Counted from the stretch's first letter, positions 6,505 through 60,581 are shown. The stretch: DNA of 64,000 nucleotides from an uncultured bacterium (GCA_966186595.1 CBIFWO010000003.1:306-64305); one strand, 5' to 3'. The notes: generated by a model from the sequence alone, not told the origin. A program made the numbers and translations.

Positions 6505-9060
6505 TTAGCGAAGGACTTCTAGTTCGTTTTCGAGGCGCAGGAGCAGTGTTTTTTTGTCATCAAGATCTTTTCTCGACTCTTCAACGAGATGGGCTGGGGC
6601 TTTGTTGAGGTAATTCTCGTTAGATAGGCGCCCCTCGAGTGTTTTAATAAACTGTTTGGTTTCGGCAAGGCGAACTTCCAAATTGGTCTGGTGTTCGTAA
6701 AGTGTTTCATCACTCACATCCAACCAAGCTTCCCTGTTGGCTGCTGCGATGCGAAGGCCGCGGGCTTGATCAATAGCCTCAGCTCCCCTCAGGCGCCCGA
6801 GGTGCTTGATGAGGTTTGCATTGTCGGCGACTAGTGAATCATTTTGATAGAGCAGCGTGTATCTTTCATTACCAGGAAGTTCAGAGATGACATATCGAGC
6901 CTCGGCAACGAGTGTCTGAAGCTGTTCAAATTCTGCTGCGGCGATATCGTCGTAGGCAAGTACCTCGGGCCATTTCGCTCCGGCTAGGATGTCGTTGTGC
7001 CATCCTAGCGATTGCCAGATCGTCTCAGTGACAAATGGTGTGAATGGATGTGCGATCTTGAGGCTGGTATCGAGCACCCACGCGAGCATGTCCGGATTGT
7101 CCTGCGTTTTGCTGGCCTCGACAAACCAATCGGCGACGTTGTCCCAAATGGCGTGATAAACCGTTTCGGCTGCTTCAGCAAAGCGGTAGTTCGATAGCTG
7201 TTGATCCAAAGTTCTAGCGGCGTCGTTCAACTCGCGAACGATCCAATGATCGACAAGGCTCTGTGGTACAGGTGCGGCCGGTTTATAATTTTCCCCCAGT
7301 TTCCCTTCGATAAAGCGTGCAATATTCCAAAGCTTGTTACAAAAGTTACGCCCGGCAACCACTTTACTGGTCGAGAATGCCTGATTTTGCCCGGCGCTAC
7401 GGCTAGCAACAATACCCAGACGAAGTGCATCCGATCCGTATTCTGAGATAATTTCCATCGGGTTGATGACGTTCCCCTTTGATTTGCTCATCTTTTGACC
7501 GTGTTCGTCGAGAACAAGACCGTGCAGGTACACCTCCTTGAACGGCACATCTTCAGTGACATACAGGCCGAGCATAATCATGCGTGACACCCAAGGATAA
7601 AGAATGTCATGACCGGTTTCCATGACGCTATTTGGATAGAAACGAGAAAGCTTGCCCCCTGAGAGATAATCGGTAGTGATGAATGGCCATTGACCACTTG
7701 AGAACCAGGTATCGAATGTGTCTTCCTCGCGTTTATATGTTGTTCCATTAACAACAATAGTTTTTTCATCAACCCTTTCGTCGTAGATCCAATCATCAGG
7801 GTCATTCTCATTTTGGAATGCTGGAATAGGAATTCCCCACGGTATTTGTCGGCTAAGGTTCCAATCGCGAAGATTGTCATAGTACTGGACAAGAGCATGC
7901 TGTTTGCTCTTTGGGAAAAACTGAATGAGTCCACTATCGATAGCCGCTTTTGCTTTTTCGACCATCGGTGTTACCTTCAAGAACCACTGATCTCGGACGA
8001 GAGGTTCAATGACACTACCGCATTTGTAGCAATGGCCTACACTATGAACGATGTTCTCTTCCCCGCGTAAGGCTTCCACGGCCTGAAGCGCGGGAATAAT
8101 CTTTTCCCTTGCTTCTGCTACGGTGAGGCCGCGGAAAGATTCAGGCACATTTTCAGTCATTCTCCCGTCAATCCCAATCAGTTCTATAAGTGGAAGATTA
8201 TGTCTTCGAGCCACTTCGAAATCATTTGGATCATGTGCGGGCGTGACGGTAACGACACCAGTGCCGTAGGTAGGATCAACGTGTTCATCGGCAATCACAG
8301 GAATCTCAATCCCAGGTACGAGAGGCTGGAAAACGTGCATGCCGATGTAGGCTTTGTAGCGTTCGTCATCCGGGTGGACCATGAGGGCGCTTTGGCCAAG
8401 CTTTGTCTCTGGTCGAGTAGTGGCGATAATGAGCTCGCCTTCTTTTTCCATAAGTGGAAAGGCTATTTTCCAAAGCTTACTCTTTTCTTCCTTGTGCTCT
8501 ACCTCTATATCAGCAAAACTTGTCTGGTGAACGGTACAAAAATTAACGATGCGTTCAGCGCGGTAGATTAATCCGTCATCCCACAGCTTTTTAAAGGTGC
8601 TATAGACCGTTTTTATTACCTTTTCATCAAGGGTGAATACTAGGTCGTCCCAATTCGCACTCACCCCAAGGGCGCGTAGCTGTAGTTCCATATTTCCCCG
8701 TTGTTGATCAACGAAGTTCCAGACCTGGCTGTAGAGCTGCTCCCTACTGAAATCAAATCGACTCTGACCTTTTTTTGTCAATTCTCTTTCATAAACAACC
8801 CACGTTTCAAAGCCGGCATGATCCGCCCCCGGAATGTAGGCTACGTCCCTTCCCTTCATACGGTGGTAGCGGACGAGAATATCTTCGAGGTCTGCCATTA
8901 AAGCGTGACCGATGTGAAGATTGCCGTTAGCATTTGGTGGCGGCATGACTATGCTATACGGTTCACCTTCCCCTTTTGGTGCAAACACACCACTGGTTTC
9001 CCACATGGCGTAAATATTCGGCTCGTATTGATTGGGGTCGTATGCTTTGGCTAACTTCAT
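6505..9060 (-). CDS. valS: valine--tRNA ligase
   Basis: 851 aa. HIGH motif (PNANGNLHIGH), KMSKS motif, editing-domain length, and a C-terminal coiled coil. Confidence 0.95.
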   Translation of the reverse strand: MKLAKAYDPNQYEPNIYAMWETSGVFAPKGEGEPYSIVMPPPNANGNLHIGHALMADLEDILVRYHRMKGRDVAYIPGADHAGFETWVVYERELTKKGQSRFDFSREQLYSQVWNFVDQQRGNMELQLRALGVSANWDDLVFTLDEKVIKTVYSTFKKLWDDGLIYRAERIVNFCTVHQTSFADIEVEHKEEKSKLWKIAFPLMEKEGELIIATTRPETKLGQSALMVHPDDERYKAYIGMHVFQPLVPGIEIPVIADEHVDPTYGTGVVTVTPAHDPNDFEVARRHNLPLIELIGIDGRMTENVPESFRGLTVAEAREKIIPALQAVEALRGEENIVHSVGHCYKCGSVIEPLVRDQWFLKVTPMVEKAKAAIDSGLIQFFPKSKQHALVQYYDNLRDWNLSRQIPWGIPIPAFQNENDPDDWIYDERVDEKTIVVNGTTYKREEDTFDTWFSSGQWPFITTDYLSGGKLSRFYPNSVMETGHDILYPWVSRMIMLGLYVTEDVPFKEVYLHGLVLDEHGQKMSKSKGNVINPMEIISEYGSDALRLGIVASRSAGQNQAFSTSKVVAGRNFCNKLWNIARFIEGKLGENYKPAAPVPQSLVDHWIVRELNDAARTLDQQLSNYRFAEAAETVYHAIWDNVADWFVEASKTQDNPDMLAWVLDTSLKIAHPFTPFVTETIWQSLGWHNDILAGAKWPEVLAYDDIAAAEFEQLQTLVAEARYVISELPGNERYTLLYQNDSLVADNANLIKHLGRLRGAEAIDQARGLRIAAANREAWLDVSDETLYEHQTNLEVRLAETKQFIKTLEGRLSNENYLNKAPAHLVEESRKDLDDKKTLLLRLENELEVLR

Positions 9061-11281: not shown

Positions 11282-11374
11282 CTGTTACAAGTATAATGCG
11301 TTTTCATCTTTTATAAAGGGTAAAGATGATATAATCTGGCGTGCGAGACAATTCCGAGCCGAAAGGTATCTCTC

Positions 11375-12199
11375 GTGACTATGTTGAGAAGAACTGTCGT
11401 TGCTGTTTTGGTGACGGTGTTCGTTGCTTTGGGGTTGGGGGTGCCAGTGGCAAACGCGAGTGGAGTGATGCCTCTCGATGATCAGAAGCTGATGCTTCGA
11501 GACTTGGGCATCAACAACTTGGGTCGGGTCGTCGTCGACAGTGCGATGACCTACCAACAGGCCATCGGTGACAGCGTCGTCCCGGAAGAGGGTCGCGCGG
11601 TGCACGCAGCGATGAAGCCGCACCTTCGCGTTGTTCCGGTGGCCTACTGGGGTCTGAGCAACAGCGGCCAACCCGATGGGCGTGTTCACGTGGGTCAGAT
11701 CGTGGTCCACCGACTGCTCGTTCGGGATACGCTGAAGACGACCCTGAAGATGTTCCAGCTGGGATTCCCGATCCACTCGGTGATTCCGCAGAGTGCGTTC
11801 GGGTACAGCGACGCTGAGTCGATGGCGGCGAACAACTCGTCCAACTACCGGCCCGAATCGGGGTCGGAGCACGGACGGGCTGCCGCGTTCGACTGGAACC
11901 CGGTGCAGAATCCGTTCGACATCACTGGCTACAACCCGAACGTGCCCGTGCAGCCGGCGGGCGCCGTGCACGACCCGACCAAGCCCGGCACTCTCACCAT
12001 GGATGGCGCAGTTCGCAAGTACTGGGCATCGTTGAACTGGGAGTGGGGTGGCAACTGGGGCAACCCGGACGCCGATCCGCCAACGGACTTCTTCCGGAAG
12101 GGGTTCTTCGACTGGCAGCACTTCCAGCTCAACGCGAAGCGGTACGACGCATTCGTCGCGCAGCTGCCGCCCTGTGTGCGTGACTGGACCTGCGTCTAG
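11375..12199 (+). CDS. secreted LAS/M15-family peptidoglycan peptidase (VanY / M15_4-like); GC-rich
   Basis: 274 aa. Signal peptide (VAVLVTVFVALGLGVPVANASG). SEHGRAAAFD matches the S-x-H-x-x-G-x-A-x-D motif. WEWGGNWG...DWQHFQL matches the W.WGG.W...D..HF motif of M15 peptidases. The antisense 305-aa ORF is Arg/His-rich junk. Confidence 0.65.
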   Translation: MTMLRRTVVAVLVTVFVALGLGVPVANASGVMPLDDQKLMLRDLGINNLGRVVVDSAMTYQQAIGDSVVPEEGRAVHAAMKPHLRVVPVAYWGLSNSGQPDGRVHVGQIVVHRLLVRDTLKTTLKMFQLGFPIHSVIPQSAFGYSDAESMAANNSSNYRPESGSEHGRAAAFDWNPVQNPFDITGYNPNVPVQPAGAVHDPTKPGTLTMDGAVRKYWASLNWEWGGNWGNPDADPPTDFFRKGFFDWQHFQLNAKRYDAFVAQLPPCVRDWTCV

Positions 12200-12347
12200 C
12201 ACTTCAACCCCGCTTACTGCGTCGAGACGATATGCTCCGTGGGAGGCGGGGTATATCTATGGTTTACGATGTTACAATCTGGCCTGATGGTCGGAATCGT
12301 TGTGGGTCTCTTCGTGTTGTGCACCGGGGGCAATTTCCGTTTTTGGA

Positions 12348-12929
12348 CTAAATTTTTACTGCGCCTTCTCGGATAACCTCAACCTCACCATCGTCGAGCA
12401 GACGAATAATTGTTGAGGGGGAGCGACCAGAACGATCGCCATCATCAACGTAAAAATCAACTGAATCTTTGAAATAATTCCAAGCCTGATTGATCGTAAT
12501 CGATCCCGGCTCTCCGGGTTGATTAGCGCTTGAGGTGAGAAGCGGGCCAGTCTGCTGCAAGATTCGACTAGTTGTTGCGTCATCGACAACACGTATAGCT
12601 ATCGTGCCAACACCTTGGTGAAGGTAGGCAAAGTCCTCTCCAACAGGCAAGATGATGCTAAGCGGATTTGGCCAGAGATTGACGGTCAAAGCAAGAAGGC
12701 TATCAGGAACGCCTAGTTCCCGCAGCTGATCAGTCGAAGCGGCAATGAGTGTACCAGGCTTCTTCTCGCGTGATTTTAGAGTGTATAGTCGCTCTACCGC
12801 CTGCTGATCATGCGCAGATGCCACCAGGCCATAAACAGTATCGGTCGGCATGATGCCTACTTTTCCCTCTTGGATGAGGGTGATGGCGCGCGAAACGCCG
12901 GTGATCTTACTCTGAGGAATCAGTTCCAT
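12348..12929 (-). CDS. tsaC: L-threonylcarbamoyladenylate synthase (YrdC/TsaC type)
   Basis: 193 aa YrdC domain with the MPTDTVYGL motif. Confidence 0.85.
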   Translation of the reverse strand: MELIPQSKITGVSRAITLIQEGKVGIMPTDTVYGLVASAHDQQAVERLYTLKSREKKPGTLIAASTDQLRELGVPDSLLALTVNLWPNPLSIILPVGEDFAYLHQGVGTIAIRVVDDATTSRILQQTGPLLTSSANQPGEPGSITINQAWNYFKDSVDFYVDDGDRSGRSPSTIIRLLDDGEVEVIREGAVKI

Positions 12930-12960
12930 ATATCTAGAATTGTACCATGAGACATGAAGC

Positions 12961-12987
12961 TCCCCCGGTCAACAATCGACCGGGGGA
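12961..12987 (-). terminator. conserved unit hairpin 1
   Basis: Perfect 10-bp stem (tcccccggtc / gaccggggga) with a 7-nt loop, 26 nt downstream of the cupin-1 stop. There is no U-tract. Confidence 0.5.
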
Positions 12988-13012
12988 AGCTCTTCAGGGG
13001 TGAAGCGAACGC

Positions 13013-13627
13013 TCAACTGACGAGGTCCAGGACTTCATCGGTGAAAATCTCGAAGTTGAGATGAAGCGAGTACTCGGGAGTGCTTGCTTCATGTTCGACA
13101 TCTGGTGGCATGATCAGGATGTCGCCAGCTTCGAGCACGAGTTCTCGCCGTGGTTCAGTCCCTCCGTCCTCGCGGATGAGTAGGCGCTTGGATCCTTCGA
13201 TCTGAGTGATGACGCCTACCCACCGATCGGTGTGCGGAGCGAATGATGCATCACCTGCCCGCGACTGGTAGGCGGAACAGGCGACCGGGAACTCTGTTGC
13301 CCCCGCGAGCATGATCTCGACAGCCCTGACCCATCCTCCGCCGTGCTCGCCCACATTTTCGCATACCTGAGTACGCGGTTGGGCGGAGTAGGCGGCCTCC
13401 ACGTCAGTGGTAGCCAGTTGTCGCTCGATGCCCTCGGGGCTCAGTAAGGACACTTTCTGGGTCGACGCCCGATCCTCACCGATTGCCATGGGCAGCGATT
13501 GGAGCCACGCCGGGTCGAAAGCGCCCTTCACGTGGAGCAGGCTGACAGAGGGGTTAGCTCTGGAAAACCCACTCGCGACGAGGACGCGCCAGAGCCGTCT
13601 GGCTACAAGGCTTGCCTCGTCGGACAT
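13013..13627 (-). CDS. JmjC/cupin_4-like Fe(II)/2-oxoglutarate oxygenase, short form (copy 1)
   Basis: 204 aa when started at ATG 13627, by alignment with copies 2 and 3; the track ORF runs on to 13765. H-x-D...H triad (APHTDRW ... VEHE) and QIEGSKRLLI. Confidence 0.7.
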   Translation of the reverse strand: MSDEASLVARRLWRVLVASGFSRANPSVSLLHVKGAFDPAWLQSLPMAIGEDRASTQKVSLLSPEGIERQLATTDVEAAYSAQPRTQVCENVGEHGGGWVRAVEIMLAGATEFPVACSAYQSRAGDASFAPHTDRWVGVITQIEGSKRLLIREDGGTEPRRELVLEAGDILIMPPDVEHEASTPEYSLHLNFEIFTDEVLDLVS

Positions 13628-13628
13628 G

Positions 13629-13793
13629 TCAGCTGTGGTGCACATGGGGCATCCCCGCCCTGATGTCGTAGCTGTACCCCCTGGCCACCCGGCTGCCGAG
13701 CGCAGCTTCCACGGCATGCCAGTCGAACTCGGGCAGTGGTGCGTCGGGCAGCTCGTCGAATTCAACGGAGGCTGCGATGGCTGGCGCGGTCAA
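13629..13793 (-). CDS. conserved small peptide P1 (54 aa) coupled to cupin 1
   Basis: TTG at 13793 lies after GAAGGTGAG. The stop TGA is 1 nt before the cupin ATG. Sequence MTAPAIAASVEFDELPDAPLPEFD...GYSYDIRAGMPHVHHS aligns with P2 and P3. Confidence 0.55.
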   Translation of the reverse strand: MTAPAIAASVEFDELPDAPLPEFDWHAVEAALGSRVARGYSYDIRAGMPHVHHS

Positions 13794-13842
13794 GGAACTC
13801 ACCTTCTCCTTTGTTGCTTCACACTCGGAATGAGCTAATTGC

Positions 13843-13872
13843 ACGATACAACACATTAATACACATAGTCAA
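13843..13872 (-). promoter_or_regulatory. promoter-like motif of unit 1 (TTGACT-N18-TATCGT)
   Basis: Minus strand: TTGACT at 13872..13867 and TATCGT at 13848..13843. Equivalent motifs in unit 2 (14865..14837, TTGACT-N17-TACTGT) and unit 3 (15840..15812, TTGACG-N17-TATGGT). Confidence 0.45.
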
Positions 13873-13921
13873 TGTATATCGAGGCAGATAAATACAAGAA
13901 TTGTACCCCGAGACATGAAAC

Positions 13922-13950
13922 TCCCCCCGGCCATCGATCGACCGGGGGAA
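13922..13950 (-). terminator. conserved unit hairpin 2
   Basis: 7-bp GC stem (cccccgg / ccggggg) around a loop containing atcgatcga, downstream of the cupin-2 stop. Confidence 0.45.
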
Positions 13951-13976
13951 GCTCTCCATGAGTGAAGTCGACCCGA

Positions 13977-14597
13977 TTATCCCGTGCGGAGCAGGGGCCG
14001 ATCCGTGAAAATCTCGAAGTTGAGATGAAGTGAGGACTCGGGAGTTCTCACTTCATGCTGGACATCTGGCGGCATGAGCAGGACGTCTCCGGCCTCAGTC
14101 ACGAGTTCCTGGAGGGGTCCCCGCCCATGGTCATCTCGTACCAGCCAGAGCTTCGAGCCCTTCACTTGGGGGATCAGCCCAATCCATCCGTCGACATGGG
14201 CGTCGAATGACGCATCTCCCTTTCTCGACTCATAGGAGGAACTGCTGACGCAGAACCCCGTAGCCGCAGAGAGGGCGATCACAACGTCCCTCACCCATCC
14301 GCCGCCGAACTTGCCCAGGTTCTCGTACGCGCGTGTACGCGGTTGGGCGGAGTAGGCGGCCTCGACGTCGGCGTCATGGAGCCATCGCTCGATCCCGTGG
14401 GGATCCAGCAGAGAGACCTCCTGACTCGCGGCCCTGTTCTCGCCTACGGCAAGGGGCAGGCTCTGTAGCCATGCCGGGTCGAATACCCTCTTCACGTGGA
14501 GGAGCCGGACAGAGGGGTTCTCCTTGGTGAACCCTCCCGCCGTTAACACGTGCCAGAGGGCATCGGCGACGGCGAGGGCGTCCGTCACTACCGTCAC
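13977..14597 (-). CDS. JmjC/cupin_4-like Fe(II)/2-oxoglutarate oxygenase, short form (copy 2)
   Basis: 206 aa. The GTG start overlaps the P2 stop (GTGA). AHVDGW ... VQHE triad and QVKGSKLWLV. Confidence 0.7.
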   Translation of the reverse strand: MTVVTDALAVADALWHVLTAGGFTKENPSVRLLHVKRVFDPAWLQSLPLAVGENRAASQEVSLLDPHGIERWLHDADVEAAYSAQPRTRAYENLGKFGGGWVRDVVIALSAATGFCVSSSSYESRKGDASFDAHVDGWIGLIPQVKGSKLWLVRDDHGRGPLQELVTEAGDVLLMPPDVQHEVRTPESSLHLNFEIFTDRPLLRTG

Positions 14598-14782
14598 GAG
14601 AGCGACGGGTCGAACGGGTCGCCGACGACGTGCTTGTGTGCGCCACCCCTAATCCTGTAGATGTACGGCTCGGCGACGGGACGGCAGATCGCTGCCGCAA
14701 TTGCGGCTGGATCGAGATCGGGCAGTGTCGCCTCGGGCAGCTCGTCGAAGTCGACGGTGACTGCAGTGGTTGGAGCAGACAA
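14594..14782 (-). CDS. conserved small peptide P2 (62 aa) coupled to cupin 2
   Basis: TTG start. Sequence MSAPTTAVTVDFDELPEATLPDLD...PYIYRIRGGAHKHVV. 4-nt overlap with the cupin start. Confidence 0.55.
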   Translation of the reverse strand: MSAPTTAVTVDFDELPEATLPDLDPAAIAAAICRPVAEPYIYRIRGGAHKHVVGDPFDPSLS

Positions 14783-14911
14783 TTGGAGCTCACCTTCTCG
14801 GTTAGTGGAACTTCATGCTCAGAAAGAGCTAATTGTACAGTATGATATATTATACGCATAGTCAATGTACATTGAGCAGATAAATACCAAAGGCACTATG
14901 AGACATGAAGC

Positions 14912-14938
14912 TCCCCCGGTCAACGATCGACCGGGGGA
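14912..14938 (-). terminator. conserved unit hairpin 3
   Basis: The same 10-bp stem (tcccccggtc / gaccggggga) with a 7-nt loop. Confidence 0.5.
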
Positions 14939-14968
14939 AGCTCTCCGGAGGGGAAGAAAACACCTAGC

Positions 14969-15583
14969 TCACCGGGTGAGGGGTAGATGGGTGAAGATCT
15001 CGAAGTTGACGTGAAGTGAGGACTCGGGAGTGCTCACTTCATGTTCAACAGTGGGTGGCATGATGAGAACATCACCCGCCTCGATGATGAGCTGCTGCCT
15101 CGGGCCCGTCCTCCCATTGCGAATCAGGAAGCGCTTTGAGCCCTTGATCTGAAGGATCACTCCGATCCAACGATCAACGTGCGCCCCGAAGGACGCATCG
15201 CCTGCTAGTGACTGATAGGCCGAACATCCGACGGAGAATCCCGTGGCGGTTGCCAAGAGAAGTTCTACGTCCTCGATCCATCCGCCACCGAGCTTGCCCA
15301 GATCCTCGTACACACGGGTACGAGACCGGGATGCATAAGCAGCCTCGACATCGGCGTCGTCGAGCCATCGCTCGATCCCGTCAGGGCTCAACAAGGACAC
15401 CTTTTGATCGGCGGCCCGGCGTTCCCCAATCGGCACTGGAAGGCTCCGTAGCCATTCCGGGTCAAGCGCGCGTCTGACGTGCAGAGCTCTCACAGAGGGG
15501 TTGCCTCTGGAGAATCCGCTTGCTGAGACGACGCGCCACAGCGTGCCGGCAATAGCTACCGGTGCCTCGATGGTGGTTGGCAT
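14969..15583 (-). CDS. JmjC/cupin_4-like Fe(II)/2-oxoglutarate oxygenase, short form (copy 3)
   Basis: 204 aa. AHVDRW ... VEHE triad and QIKGSKRFLI. About 55-65 % identical to copies 1 and 2 by eye. Confidence 0.7.
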   Translation of the reverse strand: MPTTIEAPVAIAGTLWRVVSASGFSRGNPSVRALHVRRALDPEWLRSLPVPIGERRAADQKVSLLSPDGIERWLDDADVEAAYASRSRTRVYEDLGKLGGGWIEDVELLLATATGFSVGCSAYQSLAGDASFGAHVDRWIGVILQIKGSKRFLIRNGRTGPRQQLIIEAGDVLIMPPTVEHEVSTPESSLHVNFEIFTHLPLTR

Positions 15584-15587
15584 GGCA

Positions 15588-15758
15588 CTACCTAACTGCA
15601 GTCAGGTGTGCATGGCCTCCGGACTCCATCTCATAGAGGTATGGGGTGCCCATACGACAATCCCTTGCCGCCTGCATGAGGTCGGGATTGGCATCGGGCA
15701 GCGTCACCGTGGGCAGGTCGTCGAGGTTGACGGTCTCTGCAATAATTGGCGCGGTCAA
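15588..15758 (-). CDS. conserved small peptide P3 (56 aa) coupled to cupin 3
   Basis: Below the ORF-track cutoff, so I translated it by hand: (TTG)MTAPIIAETVNLDDLPTVTLPDANPDLMQAARDCRMGTPYLYEMESGGHAHLTAVR. The stop TAG lies 4 nt before the cupin ATG. Confidence 0.5.
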   Translation of the reverse strand: MTAPIIAETVNLDDLPTVTLPDANPDLMQAARDCRMGTPYLYEMESGGHAHLTAVR

Positions 15759-15880
15759 GGAGCTCACCTCATCTTACATCGGTTTCTTCACGCTCAGAAA
15801 GAGCTGATCGTACCATACAACATAAGTTATTAATCGTCAATGCACCAAAAAGTACAACGGAATAGTGGTAGAATAGAAAC

Positions 15881-17176
15881 ATGAAAGAGGAGTTGGTAAA
15901 AGGGGCGCGACGTATCTTGCCACAAGGTGCAGTGCGTGGGCTGGAGGAGGCCTACCGTCGTAGTCGCGTTCGATTGATAAGCGCCAAATATGGCAATCCT
16001 GCAAAAGGGCTGAAGGTGATTGCCGTTACGGGTACGAATGGCAAGACGACAACGGTCAATTACATTAATGAAATTCTGAAGGAAGCCGGATACAAGACGG
16101 CGATGTTTAGTACCGCTTTGATCGAAGTGGCAGGTCAGACGAAATTGAATGATCTAAATGCGACCGTGGCATCAACCGAGCGAATGCAGCAATTCTTTCG
16201 GGATGCTAAACAGGCGGGCGCTGATTATGTGGTCCTCGAGATAACGAGTCATGCTCTCCAGCAGCACAAACTAGACGGTGTGCCGATTGAGGTGGCAATT
16301 ATGACCAACCTTACGCAGGATCATCTAGATTATCATAAGACAATGGACGAATATGCGGCTGCCAAAGCGAAGCTTTTCCAGGGTGAGCCAAAATTTATTG
16401 TGTTGAACCGTGACGATGAATGGTTTGATTATTTCAATCAATTTTATGCTGGTGCACAAAAAATCACCTACGGAACGCACGAGGAAGCCGAGGCGAAGAT
16501 CGACTACGTCAAACTCTATAAAAAGGGAAGTGAAGCTACAGTCGTGATCGATCATCAGACCAAGCTTCATCTGGCGACAGCCCTTCCTGGCAGGTTCAAT
16601 GTCTATAACATGACGGCGGCCGCGGCGACAGCATACCTTCTGGGGATGAAATTAACCGACATTGTTGAGGGTGTGGCAAATCTCGAAGGAATCCCTGGTC
16701 GTTTTGAACGAGTCGTTGAGGGAATGGGCTATGATGTAATCGTTGATTATGCACACACGCCCGACGCCTTGCAGCAGCTACTCGAAGCGGCAAAGGCTGT
16801 CACGAAAAATCGCGTCATCCTGGTATTTGGGGCGACGGGCGATCGTGACAAAAGCAAGCGTCCAATCATGGGCGAAATTGCCGCCAAATACGCAGATCGA
16901 ATTATTTTGACCGACGAAGAGAGCTACAACGAAGATCCAGAAGGCATACGTGCACAAGTGCGAGAGGGGATTGAAAAAGCTGGCGCCGACGGGAAATTAA
17001 CCGAAATCCCAGATCGCCGCGAAGCCATTGAAAAAGCCCTTTCTATTGCAAAAAAGAACGATACAATTTTGATTACTGGTATGGGGCACGAGCAGTTTCG
17101 GATCGTGAACGGGGAAAAATTGCCTTGGAATGACGGCGAAGTGGTCCGCGAGATTCTAGATACCAAGAAGTCTTAA
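15881..17176 (+). CDS. murE: Mur ligase, MurE-like (UDP-MurNAc-L-Ala-D-Glu--diamino acid ligase), lacking the usual N-terminal domain
   Basis: 431 aa. Motifs GTNGKTTT, LEITSHAL, TNLTQDHLDYH, PGRFNVYN, GRFE, VDYAHTPDAL, GATGDRDKSKRP. DEES stands where DAP-type enzymes have DNPR. Confidence 0.8.
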   Translation: MKEELVKGARRILPQGAVRGLEEAYRRSRVRLISAKYGNPAKGLKVIAVTGTNGKTTTVNYINEILKEAGYKTAMFSTALIEVAGQTKLNDLNATVASTERMQQFFRDAKQAGADYVVLEITSHALQQHKLDGVPIEVAIMTNLTQDHLDYHKTMDEYAAAKAKLFQGEPKFIVLNRDDEWFDYFNQFYAGAQKITYGTHEEAEAKIDYVKLYKKGSEATVVIDHQTKLHLATALPGRFNVYNMTAAAATAYLLGMKLTDIVEGVANLEGIPGRFERVVEGMGYDVIVDYAHTPDALQQLLEAAKAVTKNRVILVFGATGDRDKSKRPIMGEIAAKYADRIILTDEESYNEDPEGIRAQVREGIEKAGADGKLTEIPDRREAIEKALSIAKKNDTILITGMGHEQFRIVNGEKLPWNDGEVVREILDTKKS

Positions 17177-58658: not shown

Positions 58659-60581
58659 ATGAACGATAGCGGCGCCAAGCAACAAATCGTCGAAAAGATC
58701 AAAGACAGCAGCAATATCTTGGTGACGGTGAGTACTAATCCATCCGTGGATGAGTTGAGTGCAGCGCTGGGCATGACACTGGTTCTCAATAAGATGAACA
58801 AGCACGCGACGGCAGTGTTCAGTGGGGCGATTCCTCCGGCCATTTCGTTTCTCGATCCGGAAAAAACATTTGAGGGAACGGTGGACTCGCTGCGTGACTT
58901 TATTATCGCCTTGAACAAGGAAAAGGCCGATCACCTCCGTTACAAAGTTGATGGCGAAGTGGTCAAGATCTTTATCACGCCATACCGTACCACGATCACG
59001 AGCGATGATTTGGAATTCAGCCAGGGTGACTATAATGTTGAACTAGTGCTTGCACTTGGGGTCAAGAACAAAGATCATTTGGATGCTGCGCTTGAGGCGC
59101 ACGGGCGAATTTTACATGATGCGACGGTGGCGACAGTCGGTGTTGGGGAAGAGAAATCTGAGTTGGGCAGTATTGACTGGTCAGAGCAAAACGCCAGCAG
59201 CCTGAGTGAAATGCTGGTTGGACTGGTCGATTCGTTAAAGAGCGACAAGAAACTCCTTGATGAGCAAATCGCGACGGCCTTTTTGACGGGTATTGTGGCG
59301 GCAACTGATCGTTTCTCGAATAATCGTACGTCGTCGCGGGTGATGACAATCGCTGCGCAGCTGATGGGAGCGGGTGCCAATCAACAGCTGATCGCTTCGC
59401 AGTTAGAAGACGCGCATGAAATCGGTGGCGATAGACCAACCAGTTCAGGTGATAGTCAAAATTCTGATGGGACGACGACACTTTCCGAGGGTGAGTCGAC
59501 CAAGGTGAAGAAACAGCCCGAGGCGAAAGCTAAAGAGGCTGAAAAGAAGGACGATGGGTCGCTGACGATTTCTCATGAGAAGACAGGGGATATTGATCAA
59601 GTTGCTGAGGCCACCGAAACAGAGAACCAGCAGGCCGCGACCAAGCTAGCCGAGGATGAGCTTAACAAACGCGCCGAAGAGGTGAGCGAAGCGAAGCAAA
59701 CTGACGCAGCCAAGGCGGCTGAACAGAAACTAGCCGAGGAACTTGCCGGGGTTGCACCAGCGGCTAGTGGTGCATCGCCATCGGTTGCTGACCTTCAAAA
59801 GGATCTGGCTGCGGCAAATGCTGAGGTTGACGAGGCGGCAACTCAGGCGCCATCCGAGGCGGCCGGCTCACCGCTATCTGGAGCTGTCTCGACCGATCAA
59901 TGGCAGAATGGTGAAACCGAAGGGCCGAGTATGGGCGGTACGCTTAATGCGACAACCGAACAGGCTGCCGAGGACAACCGGCGGGCCATCGAAGAAGATC
60001 GCAATCGCAAGATTCTGACTCATGGTGGAAGTCATTATGTTGGTGACGCAGCGCCAGATTTTCAATCACCACTTAATGCGGCAATGCAACCAAAAGAGGA
60101 GCAATCTATCGTCAATCCACTTGATGCTGCTCCTGCACCGACTGACACGCAACCAACCATGCAAGCAAAGTCGATTGAACCTCCGGCACCTGCGCCAGTC
60201 GTTCCTTCTGGCCCTACATTGGCAGAGATTGATAAGGAAAATCGCGGCCACGAGGAAGCTCGCGCCGCGGTGGAAGCCGCCTTCGGTGCTGTGCCGTTTG
60301 AGCCAGCAGGCAATCCCGAGGTTGGGATAGGTGCGCAGCCTCTTGGGGTCGCGCTGCATGATGAGCCGGCTCCTGTTGCTGCGCCAGAACCGGCGACACC
60401 ATCACTGCCACCGATGCCTGATTTTTCAACATTGCCACCACTTCCACAGGCCCCGGGCTTTGAGGGTCCCGCCGGTGCATTGCCCCCAGAAAAACTAGAG
60501 GATGTTCTTACCCCGGCACCTCCGGCACCAGCGCCACAGACGCCCGATCCTGCTCAGTTCAAGATTCCTGGGCAGCCCTAG
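58659..60581 (+). CDS. hypothetical protein: degenerate DHH-like N-terminal domain plus long acidic/Pro-Ala-rich tail
   Basis: 640 aa. The N-terminal ~250 aa follow the NrnA/DHH layout (ILVTVSTNPSVDELSAALGM) but lack the H..PDGD ligands. The C-terminal ~380 aa are low complexity. Confidence 0.65.
   Translation: MNDSGAKQQIVEKIKDSSNILVTVSTNPSVDELSAALGMTLVLNKMNKHATAVFSGAIPPAISFLDPEKTFEGTVDSLRDFIIALNKEKADHLRYKVDGEVVKIFITPYRTTITSDDLEFSQGDYNVELVLALGVKNKDHLDAALEAHGRILHDATVATVGVGEEKSELGSIDWSEQNASSLSEMLVGLVDSLKSDKKLLDEQIATAFLTGIVAATDRFSNNRTSSRVMTIAAQLMGAGANQQLIASQLEDAHEIGGDRPTSSGDSQNSDGTTTLSEGESTKVKKQPEAKAKEAEKKDDGSLTISHEKTGDIDQVAEATETENQQAATKLAEDELNKRAEEVSEAKQTDAAKAAEQKLAEELAGVAPAASGASPSVADLQKDLAAANAEVDEAATQAPSEAAGSPLSGAVSTDQWQNGETEGPSMGGTLNATTEQAAEDNRRAIEEDRNRKILTHGGSHYVGDAAPDFQSPLNAAMQPKEEQSIVNPLDAAPAPTDTQPTMQAKSIEPPAPAPVVPSGPTLAEIDKENRGHEEARAAVEAAFGAVPFEPAGNPEVGIGAQPLGVALHDEPAPVAAPEPATPSLPPMPDFSTLPPLPQAPGFEGPAGALPPEKLEDVLTPAPPAPAPQTPDPAQFKIPGQP

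What the first reader, a model, noticed from the sequence alone, without database searches (positions are those of the whole stretch)
12931..15850. Triplicated cassette: conserved small peptide ORF translationally coupled to a half-size JmjC/cupin_4-like oxygenase
Three consecutive diverged units of about 0.98 kb lie on the minus strand between tsaC and murE. In transcription order each unit has four parts. (1) A TTGAC(T/G)-N17/18-TA..GT promoter-like motif. (2) A 54-62-codon ORF (P1 13629..13793, P2 14594..14782, P3 15588..15758) whose TTG start follows GAAGGTGAG. (3) A roughly 205-codon ORF whose start overlaps the peptide stop or lies within 4 nt of it (GTGA in unit 2, TGAcATG in unit 1, TAGtgccATG in unit 3). 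(4) A conserved GC hairpin (tcccccggtc / gaccggggga). The large proteins are about 55-65 % identical by eye. They keep an H-x-D ... H arrangement (PHTDRW / AHVDGW / AHVDRW ... VEHE / VQHE / VEHE) and a Q-x-x-G-S-K block. That is the pattern of JmjC/cupin_4 (RoxA/YcfD-type) Fe(II)/2-oxoglutarate protein hydroxylases, yet these proteins are only about half the size of those enzymes. The peptides share an acidic N-terminal (F/L)-D-(E/D)-L-P ... L-P-(D/E) block and a C-terminal (G/P)-Y-x-Y-x-(I/M)-x-x-G-x-x-H-x-H block, with a divergent middle. That layout resembles a leader plus core. Enzymes of this family modify protein side chains, so a dedicated, co-translated peptide substrate is a reasonable hypothesis; it could be a RiPP-like product or a modified effector. 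I know of no described RiPP class or peptide-modification system built on a JmjC/cupin_4 enzyme. The array is GC-rich (60 % in sample 14041..14100) compared with its neighbours.
Basis: partly seen in the sequence, partly recalled or inferred. Interest (0 to 1): 0.9.

Follow-up and report, generated by a model that had tools for sequence, protein, structure and literature searches.

The report
Peptide plus mini-JmjC hydroxylase cassettes
Three tandem copies of a horizontally acquired two-gene module, each a small His/Tyr-motif peptide translationally coupled to a half-size JmjC oxygenase most like the human ribosomal histidine hydroxylases, sit between tsaC and murE; the same pairing recurs in Streptomyces and other Actinobacteria, which points to an undescribed dedicated peptide-hydroxylase system.

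Summary
Three 0.96-0.99 kb units lie on the minus strand. Each has a promoter-like site, a 54-62-codon ORF, a coupled 204-206-aa ORF and a GC hairpin.

**Enzymes.** They pass Pfam's threshold for PF08007 (JmjC_2). They are under purifying selection and model with pLDDT 95. Their closest solved relatives, by sequence and by fold, are the histidyl hydroxylases MINA53 and NO66. They lack the dimerisation and winged-helix domains of those enzymes.

**Insertion.** The array is strain-variable: close relatives have tsaC and murE directly adjacent. Its GC3 is 0.66-0.80, against about 0.5 in the flanking genes.

**Wider family.** About 245 representative proteins match the family profile. Named genomes carrying it are Streptomyces and other Actinobacteria plus several Saccharimonadia lineages that do not form one clade. 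In about 30 actinobacterial loci an upstream same-strand ORF ends at or near the enzyme start. Its C-terminal tail carries a Y/C...G...H-x-aromatic motif. The window peptides end G-G-x-H-x-H, like the MINA53 and NO66 substrates. Natural partner-enzyme fusions exist.

**Reading.** The most likely function is a dedicated peptide-His hydroxylase pair. This is unproven. JmjC tailoring enzymes in RiPP pathways are already known (CzlI, BpmG/PbsQ), so I rate it a new variant of a known kind.

The parts
12348..12929 (-). tsaC (Sua5/YciO/YrdC family), downstream flank of the array
   Evidence: ORF. The orthologue in L002 carries PF01300.
12961..12987 (-). Unit 1 GC-rich hairpin (UCCCCCGGUC-loop-GACCGGGGGA). 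It is followed by a copy of the native tsaC -10 region.
13013..13627 (-). E1, a 204-aa mini-JmjC oxygenase
   Evidence: PF08007 E 1.9e-11; alignment.
13629..13793 (-). P1, a 54-aa partner peptide ending ...GYSYDIRAGMPHVHHS. Its stop lies 1 nt before the E1 ATG.
13843..13872 (-). Unit 1 promoter-like site, TTGACT-18-TATCGT
13921..13949 (-). Unit 2 GC-rich hairpin
13977..14597 (-). E2, a 206-aa mini-JmjC oxygenase. Predicted metal triad H134/D136/H181; predicted 2OG-binding Lys K149.
14594..14782 (-). P2, a 62-aa partner peptide containing ...PYIYRIRGGAHKHVVGDPFDPSLS. It overlaps the E2 start by 4 nt (GTGA).
14837..14871 (-). Unit 2 promoter-like region. The scan gives TGTACA-18-TATCAT.
14912..14938 (-). 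Unit 3 GC-rich hairpin
14969..15583 (-). E3, a 204-aa mini-JmjC oxygenase
   Evidence: PF08007 E 1.3e-10.
15588..15758 (-). P3, a 56-aa partner peptide containing ...DCRMGTPYLYEMESGGHAHLTAVR. An alternative GTG start lies at 15767. The stop lies 4 nt before the E3 ATG.
   Evidence: The gene was called in L002 as P0167.
15812..15840 (-). Unit 3 promoter-like site, TTGACG-17-TATGGT
15881..17176 (+). murE (Mur ligase), divergent upstream flank of the array
   Evidence: ORF. Orthologues carry PF08245/PF02875.

Best explanation
Each unit is a self-contained bicistronic module acquired from a high-GC donor, probably an actinobacterium. It has its own promoter. A small ORF with a Shine-Dalgarno element is translated first. 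E1 and E2 have no recognisable Shine-Dalgarno element and E3 only a weak one, so the enzyme ORF is probably translated by termination-reinitiation. A GC hairpin closes the unit.

The enzyme is a stand-alone catalytic JmjC domain, an Fe(II)/2-oxoglutarate oxygenase. It is most closely related to the ribosomal histidyl C-3 hydroxylases MINA53 and NO66.

Its dedicated client is the co-translated partner peptide. The conserved acidic N-terminal part of the peptide would dock on the enzyme. The variable C-terminal part carries aromatic-x-aromatic ... G-x-H-x-H and would present a His to the iron centre for oxidation, most likely beta-hydroxylation.

The array arose by in-situ tandem duplication of one inserted unit, after which the peptide-enzyme pairs diverged.

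**Shown:** the anatomy; family membership of the catalytic domain; conservation of the catalytic residues; strain-variable insertion; family-wide conservation of a coupled upstream partner carrying a His motif; natural fusions.

**Inferred:** that the peptide is the substrate; that His is the modified residue; that the chemistry is hydroxylation; the source of the transfer. The biological role of the modified peptide is unknown.
For: **Catalytic domain**
- PF08007 scores above the gathering cut-off for all three enzymes.
- AF2 model of E2: pLDDT 95, pTM 0.91.
- Foldseek top hits are NO66 and MINA53 (E 3e-11 to 1e-10, TMq 0.63-0.68), then YxbC and YcfD.
- A family profile against PDB sequences gives MINA53 1e-10, YxbC 1e-7, NO66 2e-7 and YcfD only 0.02.
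- H134 and H181 are invariant and D136 and K149 at least 90% conserved. In the alignment, MINA53 Lys194 aligns with K149, and Tyr167, which hydrogen-bonds the substrate His39 (PMC9994133), aligns with the family's conserved Y-E-S tyrosine.
- Enzyme dN/dS is 0.12-0.28 among the paralogues.

**Peptides are coding**
- The frame is open in 8-9 variants, with indels in whole codons.
- GC3 >= GC1 > GC2 in the proposed frame, as in the enzymes.
- dN/dS is 0.37-0.57 in the leader and dN is 0 in the tail, while the core is 1.0-1.9.

**Partner is conserved across the family**
- In 21 Streptomyces loci a same-strand upstream ORF is conserved. In 19 of them its stop lies -12 to +15 nt from the enzyme start.
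- The same arrangement occurs in L007, L008, L012, L015, L036, L041, L069, L070 and L073.
- All tails carry Y/C...G...H-x-(Y/H/F/W/M).

**Motif matches known substrates**
- Window peptides: GGAHKH, SGGHAH, GMPHVH. L072: DGAHIH.
- Rpl27a GGLH39HH and Rpl8 GGNH216QH are the MINA53 and NO66 substrates. In both, the His at +2 is also contacted by the enzyme (PMC9994133).

**Natural fusions**
- P0038 (L039) and P0024/P0032/P0077 join a partner-like segment to the enzyme.

**Insertion and duplication**
- Empty sites occur in L003 and L005.
- Each unit ends with a copy of the native tsaC -10 region.
- GC3 is elevated.
Against: - There is no direct evidence of modification.
- Profile-profile comparison of the Streptomyces partner with the window peptides is not significant (probability 0.25%; only a 6-residue G..H stretch aligns). 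Homology between the two partner types therefore rests on position plus a short motif.
- The AF2 model of the natural fusion P0038 leaves the His-rich segment at pLDDT 44-55, that is, undocked. Only an N-terminal hairpin is confident.
- MINA53 Ser257, which contacts the +2 His, has no conserved counterpart in this family (my reading of the alignment).
- It is ambiguous which of the two His residues corresponds to the actinobacterial invariant His. MAFFT aligns the second one.
- The dN/dS values for the core rest on 12-18 substitutions and are not statistically significant.
Confidence: 0.5

Rival explanations
1. Cognate regulator or pseudo-substrate pair, with toxin-antitoxin-like logic. The enzyme's real target would be a cellular or host protein, for example a ribosomal protein as for YcfD, NO66 and MINA53. 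The small partner would be a tightly bound inhibitor or specificity subunit whose His tail occupies the active site.
For: - The architecture resembles a type II toxin-antitoxin module: a small upstream gene overlapping a larger downstream gene, with its own promoter.
- The module is strain-variable and present in tandem multicopy, with each peptide paired to its own diverged enzyme.
- It is also found on a Streptomyces plasmid and on IMG/VR contigs.
- A hypervariable core next to conserved anchor residues fits co-evolving cognate pairs.
- PMC9994133 shows that substrate-like peptides with Asn or Gln in place of His are potent MINA53 inhibitors.
Against: - No DNA-binding antitoxin domain or any known toxin-antitoxin or defence family was detected (Pfam, NCBIfam and PADLOC).
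- The invariant residue in the tail is exactly the residue that the closest characterised relatives hydroxylate. That fits a substrate better than an inhibitor.
- Fusing a toxin to its antitoxin in one polypeptide is unusual, yet fusions occur here.
Confidence: 0.2
2. A true RiPP natural product. The hydroxylated or oxidatively cross-linked core would be cleaved from the leader and exported as a bioactive compound, perhaps acting on the actinobacterial host of the Saccharibacterium.
For: - The peptide has a leader/core-like layout: conserved acidic leader, hypervariable core, invariant aromatic and His positions.
- JmjC enzymes do act on RiPP precursors: CzlI (PMC11575548) and BpmG/PbsQ (PMC12257519).
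- In 4 Streptomyces loci the pair lies beside LanB and PCMT-type lanthipeptide genes.
- i, i+2 aromatic/His pairs resemble cyclophane and biaryl RiPP motifs (from my own knowledge).
Against: - There is no protease, transporter or RiPP recognition element (RRE) gene in or next to the cassette. The flanks are tsaC and murE.
- Each precursor has its own enzyme rather than several precursors sharing one.
- Actinobacterial partners are 110-120 aa with a conserved, probably folded N-domain, and some are fused to the enzyme.
- Neighbouring genes in Streptomyces vary from locus to locus.
Confidence: 0.15
3. The small ORFs would matter only as translated leader ORFs that deliver ribosomes to the enzyme start, or that regulate it. 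On this view the peptide products have no function, and the enzyme acts on an unrelated substrate.
For: - E1 and E2 have no recognisable Shine-Dalgarno element and start within 4 nt of the upstream stop.
- Overall peptide dN/dS is relaxed, at 0.47-0.89.
Against: - Specific residues are invariant across variants that differ at dS of about 1: D13, L15, P16, L20, P21, Y40, G47, H49 and H51.
- dN is 0 in the GDPFDPSLS tail.
- The tail His motif recurs in distant actinobacterial partners.
- Partner-enzyme fusions exist.
Confidence: 0.08

Closest known systems
Ribosomal oxygenases MINA53 and NO66 (histidyl C-3 hydroxylases) and YcfD/RoxA (arginyl hydroxylase), Pfam PF08007
   Same: - They share the JmjC double-stranded beta-helix (DSBH) fold, the HxD...H triad and the 2OG-binding Lys.
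- They are the best sequence and fold matches.
- Their substrates carry G-G-x-H-x-H, like the window peptides.
   Different: - The window enzymes are 204-206 aa and lack the dimerisation and C-terminal winged-helix domains. The PDB chains matched for the known enzymes are 373-489 residues long.
- The presumed client is a dedicated, co-transcribed small peptide rather than a ribosomal protein.
- They are encoded in multicopy, strain-variable cassettes.
CzlI (curacozole) and BpmG/PbsQ (biphenomycins), JmjC/cupin peptide hydroxylases in RiPP pathways
   Same: They are JmjC-type Fe/2OG enzymes that hydroxylate a ribosomally made peptide encoded next to them (PMC11575548, PMC12257519).
   Different: - Those enzymes are accessory tailoring enzymes inside multi-enzyme clusters that also encode class-defining enzymes, proteases and transporters.
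- They act on Phe or Orn.
- Here the JmjC enzyme is the only enzyme, and the conserved target-like residue is His.
- I did not test sequence relatedness to CzlI, BpmG or PbsQ, because their sequences were not at hand.
Bacillus subtilis YxbC (PDB 1VRB, 7ZCC), an uncharacterised bacterial JmjC protein
   Same: It is a bacterial JmjC_2-type protein of unknown substrate and a strong fold match (TMq 0.64-0.69).
   Different: It is about 340 aa. Whether a coupled partner peptide is encoded next to yxbC was not examined here.
Type II toxin-antitoxin modules (architecture only)
   Same: - A small upstream gene overlaps a larger downstream gene, with its own promoter.
- The modules are mobile, strain-variable and often multicopy.
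   Different: No known toxin or antitoxin domain, no DNA-binding domain, and no PADLOC, Pfam or NCBIfam match beyond the JmjC and related cupin models for the enzymes.

Membership tests
JmjC_2 / ribosomal oxygenase (ROX) family, PF08007 | JmjC double-stranded beta-helix catalytic domain | tested here: met
   Pfam scores are 38.7-44 bits against a cut-off of 22. The AF2 model has pLDDT 95. Foldseek top hits are NO66, MINA53, YxbC and YcfD.
JmjC_2 / ribosomal oxygenase (ROX) family, PF08007 | HxD...H iron-binding triad and 2OG-binding Lys | tested here: met
   H134 and H181 are invariant and D136 and K149 at least 90% conserved in 38 sequences. K149 aligns with MINA53 Lys194.
JmjC_2 / ribosomal oxygenase (ROX) family, PF08007 | Dimerisation domain plus C-terminal winged-helix domain after the JmjC domain (the ROX architecture, from my knowledge of the NO66, MINA53 and YcfD structures) | tested here: not met
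   The proteins end 5-10 residues after the last DSBH strand. Foldseek covers only 29-36% of NO66 and MINA53 (TMt 0.29-0.36).
JmjC_2 / ribosomal oxygenase (ROX) family, PF08007 | Hydroxylates a ribosomal protein | not testable with these tools
   This needs mass spectrometry of ribosomal proteins. The conserved dedicated partner suggests a different client.
RiPP biosynthetic gene cluster | Precursor peptide gene next to its modifying enzyme, with a conserved leader and a variable core | tested here: met
   The genes are adjacent and coupled. Leader dN/dS is 0.37-0.57 against 1.0-1.9 for the core, on small numbers.
RiPP biosynthetic gene cluster | Leader peptidase and/or exporter in the cluster | tested here: not met
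   The cassette holds only two genes per unit. The flanks are tsaC and murE.
RiPP biosynthetic gene cluster | Recognised leader-binding element (RRE) or demonstrated leader-enzyme binding | tested here: inconclusive
   Pfam found no RRE domain. In the fusion P0038 an N-terminal hairpin is modelled confidently (pLDDT 82-85), but the tool gives no contacts.
RiPP biosynthetic gene cluster | Post-translationally modified, matured product | not testable with these tools
   This needs heterologous expression and LC-MS/MS.
Type II toxin-antitoxin system | Antitoxin with a DNA-binding domain and a toxin from a known family | tested here: not met
   The peptides have no Pfam, NCBIfam or PADLOC hits. 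The Streptomyces partner N-domain has no hit in Pfam, NCBIfam or PDB sequences.
Type II toxin-antitoxin system | Growth arrest by the downstream protein, relieved by the upstream one | not testable with these tools
   This needs expression experiments.

The most novel reading that the evidence does not exclude
The mini-JmjC plus His/Tyr-tail partner pair would be a previously unrecognised, widespread two-component system in Actinobacteria, acquired several times independently by Saccharibacteria, which grow as episymbionts on other bacteria. In it, a minimal ROX-like oxygenase oxidises a dedicated partner by His hydroxylation or a His-Tyr/Trp cross-link. It would be either a new RiPP class defined by a JmjC enzyme, or a new oxygen/iron/2OG-responsive protein switch.
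Probability: 0.3. Interest if true: 0.8.

Novelty: new variant of a known kind. Interest (0 to 1): 0.66.

Why it matters
- If the peptide is the substrate, this is the smallest known self-sufficient JmjC protein hydroxylase paired with a genetically encoded client. That would make it a tractable model for how ROX-type enzymes recognise G-G-x-H-x-H loops.
- It would give a function to an unannotated family. About 245 representative proteins at 50% clustering match the profile, and NCBI labels them only 'cupin domain-containing protein' next to a 'hypothetical protein'.
- The family occurs in Actinobacteria and in three Saccharimonadia lineages that do not group together. This suggests repeated gene flow into these reduced episymbiont genomes. 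I did not identify the hosts of these lineages.
- Retaining and even triplicating the module in a reduced genome implies that it is useful there.
- If the product proves to be a secreted compound, it would define a RiPP class built on a JmjC enzyme.

Tried and rejected
- **Word-indexed protein searches.** The search with E2 gave 4 hits, with the 38-sequence alignment 9 hits, and with the peptide alignment 2 hits. They were too insensitive for this family. The exhaustive profile search and a back-translated DNA pattern were what opened it up.
- **Metagenome scans.**
  - The E2 peptide patterns gave 153 chance hits and no relative.
  - A leader-specific DNA pattern gave 27 stretches, none of which encodes the enzyme.
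- **Phage collection.** No match.
- **Peptide-linker-enzyme fusions for AlphaFold.** The natural fusion P0038 was modelled instead, and the His segment was not confidently placed.
- **HMM of the window peptides against all loci.** It detects only the window-type clade. hhalign between the two partner types is not significant.
- **MazE/AbrB-like fold for the Streptomyces partner N-domain.** I considered this because of the pattern 'DDEVLVQ...VVELRPRK'. No Pfam or PDB-sequence support was found; the best PDB hit is SlyD at E 0.18. I do not claim it.
- **ARAGORN's permuted tmRNA call at 14315-14952.** Rejected. It has no Rfam support, it lies on the opposite strand, and it spans parts of E2, P2 and the unit 3/2 junction.
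- **The 640-aa ORF at 58659-60581.** I suspected DnaK by analogy with L039, where the family member lies upstream of dnaK. It does not look like DnaK, and the window holds no fourth family member.

Full report
**1. What is in the sequence**

The region 12931-15850 holds three tandem, diverged units on the minus strand. Repeat finding gives three-copy families with spacings of 961-994 nt.

In transcription order, each unit has four parts.
- **A sigma-70-like promoter match.** The scan found 4 on this strand against 1.5 +/- 1.1 in shuffles. One lies upstream of each unit's peptide ORF, at equivalent positions in units 1 and 3.
- **A small ORF.** P3 15588-15758, P2 14594-14782 and P1 13629-13793 encode 56, 62 and 54 aa. 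Each starts at TTG, 5-7 nt after a GGTGAG Shine-Dalgarno-like element.
- **A 204-206-codon ORF.** These are E3 14969-15583, E2 13977-14597 and E1 13013-13627. The start overlaps the peptide stop (GTGA) or lies 1-4 nt after it. E1 and E2 have no Shine-Dalgarno element of their own and E3 has only a weak one.
- **A 10-13-bp GC hairpin without a U tract.** z-scores are -2.3 to -3.6.

The enzymes are 62-64% identical. The peptides are 38-51% identical. They share an acidic (F/L)D(E/D)LP...LP(D/E) block and a Y-x-Y...G..H-x-H block. The window contains no further copy.

**2. The small ORFs look like real genes**

- The frame is open in every available variant: three in the window, three in L002, and one each in L001, L004 and L072, plus protein P0168. 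Length differences are whole codons.
- Codon-position GC follows GC3 >= GC1 > GC2, as in the enzymes.
- Among P2-type orthologues the leader (residues 1-30) has dN/dS 0.37-0.57. The GDPFDPSLS tail has dN = 0 with dS 0.36. The core (residues 31-53) has dN/dS 1.0-1.9. The aromatic-x-aromatic, Gly and two His positions stay fixed. The counts are small, at 12-18 nonsynonymous changes, so this is a pattern and not a statistical test.
- The enzymes are under clear purifying selection, with dN/dS 0.12-0.28 among the paralogues.

**3. What the large proteins are**

- All three pass Pfam's gathering threshold for PF08007, JmjC_2, formerly Cupin_4.
- An exhaustive profile search found 245 representative proteins at E <= 1e-3, mostly about 200 aa.
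- In a 38-sequence alignment H134, H181, S124, D128 and H191 are invariant, and D136, Q144 and K149 are at least 90% conserved.
- The AlphaFold model of E2 is confident, with pLDDT 95 and pTM 0.91.
- Its best structural matches are NO66 and MINA53, followed by YxbC and YcfD.
- A family profile searched against PDB sequences ranks MINA53 (1e-10), YxbC (1e-7) and NO66 (2e-7) far above YcfD (0.02).
- In that alignment MINA53 Lys194, which binds 2OG, matches K149. Tyr167, which hydrogen-bonds the substrate His39 according to PMC9994133, matches the family's conserved Y-E-S tyrosine.
- The proteins end right after the DSBH. They therefore lack the dimerisation and winged-helix domains of the ROX enzymes.

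'Half-size JmjC/cupin_4 oxygenase' is correct. They are a bare catalytic domain that resembles the histidyl hydroxylases most.

**4. The array is a strain-variable insertion of foreign composition**

- L002 carries the same three units.
- Two close relatives of the host genome, L003 and L005, have tsaC and murE directly adjacent, with 89 and 53 bp between them. L003 is about 75-84% identical in nucleotide sequence across the neighbouring genes.
- L004 and L072 carry a P2-type unit next to murE.
- Each unit ends, just after the hairpin, with a copy of the native tsaC -10 region (CATGTCTC..GGTACAAT). The triplication therefore happened in place.
- Paralogue divergence is old (dS 1.1-2.2, against 0.17 between E2 and its L001 orthologue). 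In L002 the N-terminus of P1 is P2-like, which suggests gene conversion.
- Cassette genes have GC3 0.66-0.80. The neighbouring housekeeping genes have 0.47-0.55.

**5. Where the family lives**

A back-translated pattern for the HxDxWxGxxxQxxGxKxW block was scanned over one genome per GTDB species. It returned 35 loci, of which 34 are real.
- Thirty are Actinobacteria: 26 Streptomyces plus Actinacidiphila, Streptosporangiaceae, Spongiactinospora and Spirillospora.
- Four are from Saccharimonadia: three contigs of one Saccharimonadales MAG and one Saccharimonadia MAG.

The window's own taxon is not given. Its gene content, and that of the related contig L001, fits a Saccharibacterium: FemAB, TsaC/TsaD and a compact housekeeping set in the window, type IV pilus genes in L001, and GC near 0.51. 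This is inference, not a tested result.

In a rough NJ tree the window-type clade is well supported (60/60) and is sister to P0014 (56/60). The Saccharimonadia copies are never monophyletic (0/60). That favours several independent transfers.

One Saccharimonadales MAG also carries tandem copies, and two of its copies sit at contig ends.

The pair also occurs on a Streptomyces halstedii linear plasmid. NCBI annotates it there as 'hypothetical protein' plus 'cupin domain-containing protein'. It is also present on three IMG/VR contigs.

**6. The key comparative result: the partner is conserved across the family**

- In 21 Streptomyces loci a same-strand upstream ORF of about 110-120 aa is conserved. 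In 19 of them its stop lies -12 to +15 nt from the enzyme start.
- It has a conserved N-domain with no Pfam, NCBIfam or PDB-sequence relative.
- Its C-terminal tail reads C/Y-x(5-14)-[DN]G-x(1-3)-H-x-[Y/F/W/H]-x(1-4)-end.
- Other actinobacterial subfamilies show the same arrangement, with tails such as YRKQGLHIHHM (L008), YRRQHGAHFML (L007), YDKVAGAHWCV (L015), PDGTCGHLMY (L012) and NPSGPPGHGM (L036).
- These resemble the window-type cores: PYIYRIRGGAHKHVV, PYLYEMESGGHAHL, GYSYDIRAGMPHVH, WVWRPWGKDGAHIHV and PYVWRSVQGSHKHVV.
- In L028 the partner carries two D-x-[ND]-G-K-V-I-x-H-[IL] repeats.
- Natural fusions exist.
  - P0038 in L039 joins an N-terminal extension containing 'DCSTRYDEDGTNHHDHE' to the enzyme.
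  - P0024, P0032 and P0077 have the order N-domain, then tail, then N-domain, then enzyme.
  - P0017, P0026, P0031 and P0057 carry only the N-domain on the enzyme.

One caveat applies. Profile-profile comparison does not establish homology between the Streptomyces partner and the window peptides (probability 0.25%). The link is positional plus a short motif.

**7. Mechanistic reading**

The closest characterised enzymes hydroxylate C-3 of a His in G-G-L-H39-H-H (Rpl27a) and G-G-N-H216-Q-H (Rpl8). In both, the His at +2 is also bound by the enzyme (PMC9994133). The window peptides carry G-G-A-H-K-H, S-G-G-H-A-H and G-M-P-H-V-H.

The only residue conserved in every partner tail is a His that follows a Gly-containing turn. 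The most economical explanation is therefore a dedicated peptide (or small-protein) histidyl hydroxylase pair. The conserved N-terminal part of the peptide would act as a docking element and the flexible tail would be the substrate.

The AF2 model of the natural fusion P0038 is compatible with this but not decisive. An N-terminal beta-hairpin is confident (pLDDT 82-85) without any alignment depth. The His-rich segment is not placed (pLDDT 44-55). The tool gives no contacts and does not model the metal.

I put 0.5 on this explanation. The fate and role of the modified peptide are unknown.

**8. Rivals**

- **A toxin-antitoxin-like or regulatory pair, with the tail acting as pseudo-substrate (0.2).** The architecture, the mobility, the one-enzyme-per-peptide co-divergence and the known inhibition of MINA53 by substrate-like peptides all fit. 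No toxin-antitoxin, defence or DNA-binding domain is detectable.
- **A true exported RiPP (0.15).** The leader/core pattern fits, and there is precedent for JmjC enzymes acting on RiPP precursors: CzlI (PMC11575548) and BpmG/PbsQ (PMC12257519). Four Streptomyces loci are adjacent to LanB and PCMT-type genes. However, the cassette has no protease or exporter. Actinobacterial partners are 110-120-aa proteins, and some are fused to the enzyme.
- **A pure leader-ORF coupling device (0.08).** Conserved residues, the motif across the family and the fusions all argue against it.

**9. Novelty**

- The full-text searches found no description of a small JmjC enzyme coupled to a His-tail partner.
- NCBIfam has no model for either component.
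- I rate this a new variant of a known kind. The enzyme is a minimal ROX-type JmjC domain. The new elements are the genetically coupled dedicated partner, the two-gene cassette format, and its presence in both Actinobacteria and Saccharimonadia.
- My interest score is 0.66. The computational case is coherent and directly testable, but the chemistry is unproven.

Noticed in passing
window 14315-14952 (+): ARAGORN calls a 638-nt permuted tmRNA with tag peptide VQYDILYA. It lies on the strand opposite the cassette and spans parts of E2, P2 and the unit 3/2 junction. Rfam finds no tmRNA anywhere in the window, so this is almost certainly a false positive.
   Followed up: partly
window 11375-12199 (+): The 274-aa gene beside tsaD is as GC-rich as the cassette (GC 0.62, GC3 0.79). 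Its orthologues hit Peptidase_M15_4 weakly. It may be a second acquisition from a high-GC donor. Unlike the cassette, it is also present in L003 and L002. A 305-aa antisense ORF (11285-12202) is probably a by-product of the high GC.
   Followed up: partly
L001 7027-8200: A single P2-type unit is flanked by a 57-codon 5' fragment of murE and the first codons of tsaC. The surrounding context is different: a DEAD/ResIII helicase, Fic, NUDIX and type IV pilus genes. This is either a segmental duplication or translocation of the whole murE-cassette-tsaC junction, or a chimeric assembly.
   Followed up: partly
L001 9437-9949; L041 7637-8197; L069 7633-8220: A NUDIX hydrolase gene lies close to the pair in three unrelated contexts: a relative of the window genome, the S. 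halstedii plasmid, and an IMG/VR Streptomyces-like contig. Whether it is functionally linked is unknown.
   Followed up: no
L028 1-1649; L016; L031 (Saccharimonadales MAG SMAG_U15668): Another Saccharimonadales genome has tandem enzyme copies. Between them lies a ~140-aa partner (172 aa from the first possible start) with two D-x-[ND]-G-K-V-I-x-H-[IL] repeats and a 190-nt gap instead of coupling. Two further copies sit at contig ends, as expected for repeats that break assemblies.
   Followed up: partly
L002 3422-3586: The P1 peptide of the near-identical strain has a P2-like N-terminus (LSAPTTAVTVNFDELPEATLP...). This suggests gene conversion between units of the array.
   Followed up: no
L009, L013, L020, L021, L025, L030, L038: In several Streptomyces loci the pair lies within a few kb of a LanB-type lanthipeptide dehydratase (PF04738, E 6e-177) and/or a 404-aa PCMT-like methyltransferase. 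This resembles FxLD-type class I lanthipeptide clusters. Other loci instead have an Exo_endo_phos protein (about 9 loci), a HATPase_c_2 protein, or a ~230-aa CxxC protein with no Pfam family.
   Followed up: partly
L001 ~7165-7180 and ~8135-8150, compared with L003 9925-9960: The single-unit insert is bounded by TCTCGT on the left and TCTCGG on the right, while the empty site reads CTCGTG. This may be a 5-6-bp target duplication. No transposase or integrase is present.
   Followed up: no
L069, L070, L071 (IMG/VR contigs): Three contigs classified as viral carry the partner-enzyme pair. The sequence looks Streptomyces-like. Whether these are true prophages was not examined.
   Followed up: no
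P0090, P0094, P0095 (339-457 aa family members): The long N-terminal extensions of these enzymes contain 3-4 repeats of H-x-x-[VI]-x-[DN]-G-x-x-x-Y, for example 'VHQVVTGDDGTDSYVRV'. The His and Tyr are in the reverse order relative to the Streptomyces tails. This suggests a beta-hairpin with a cross-strand His/Tyr pair as the recognised unit.
   Followed up: no
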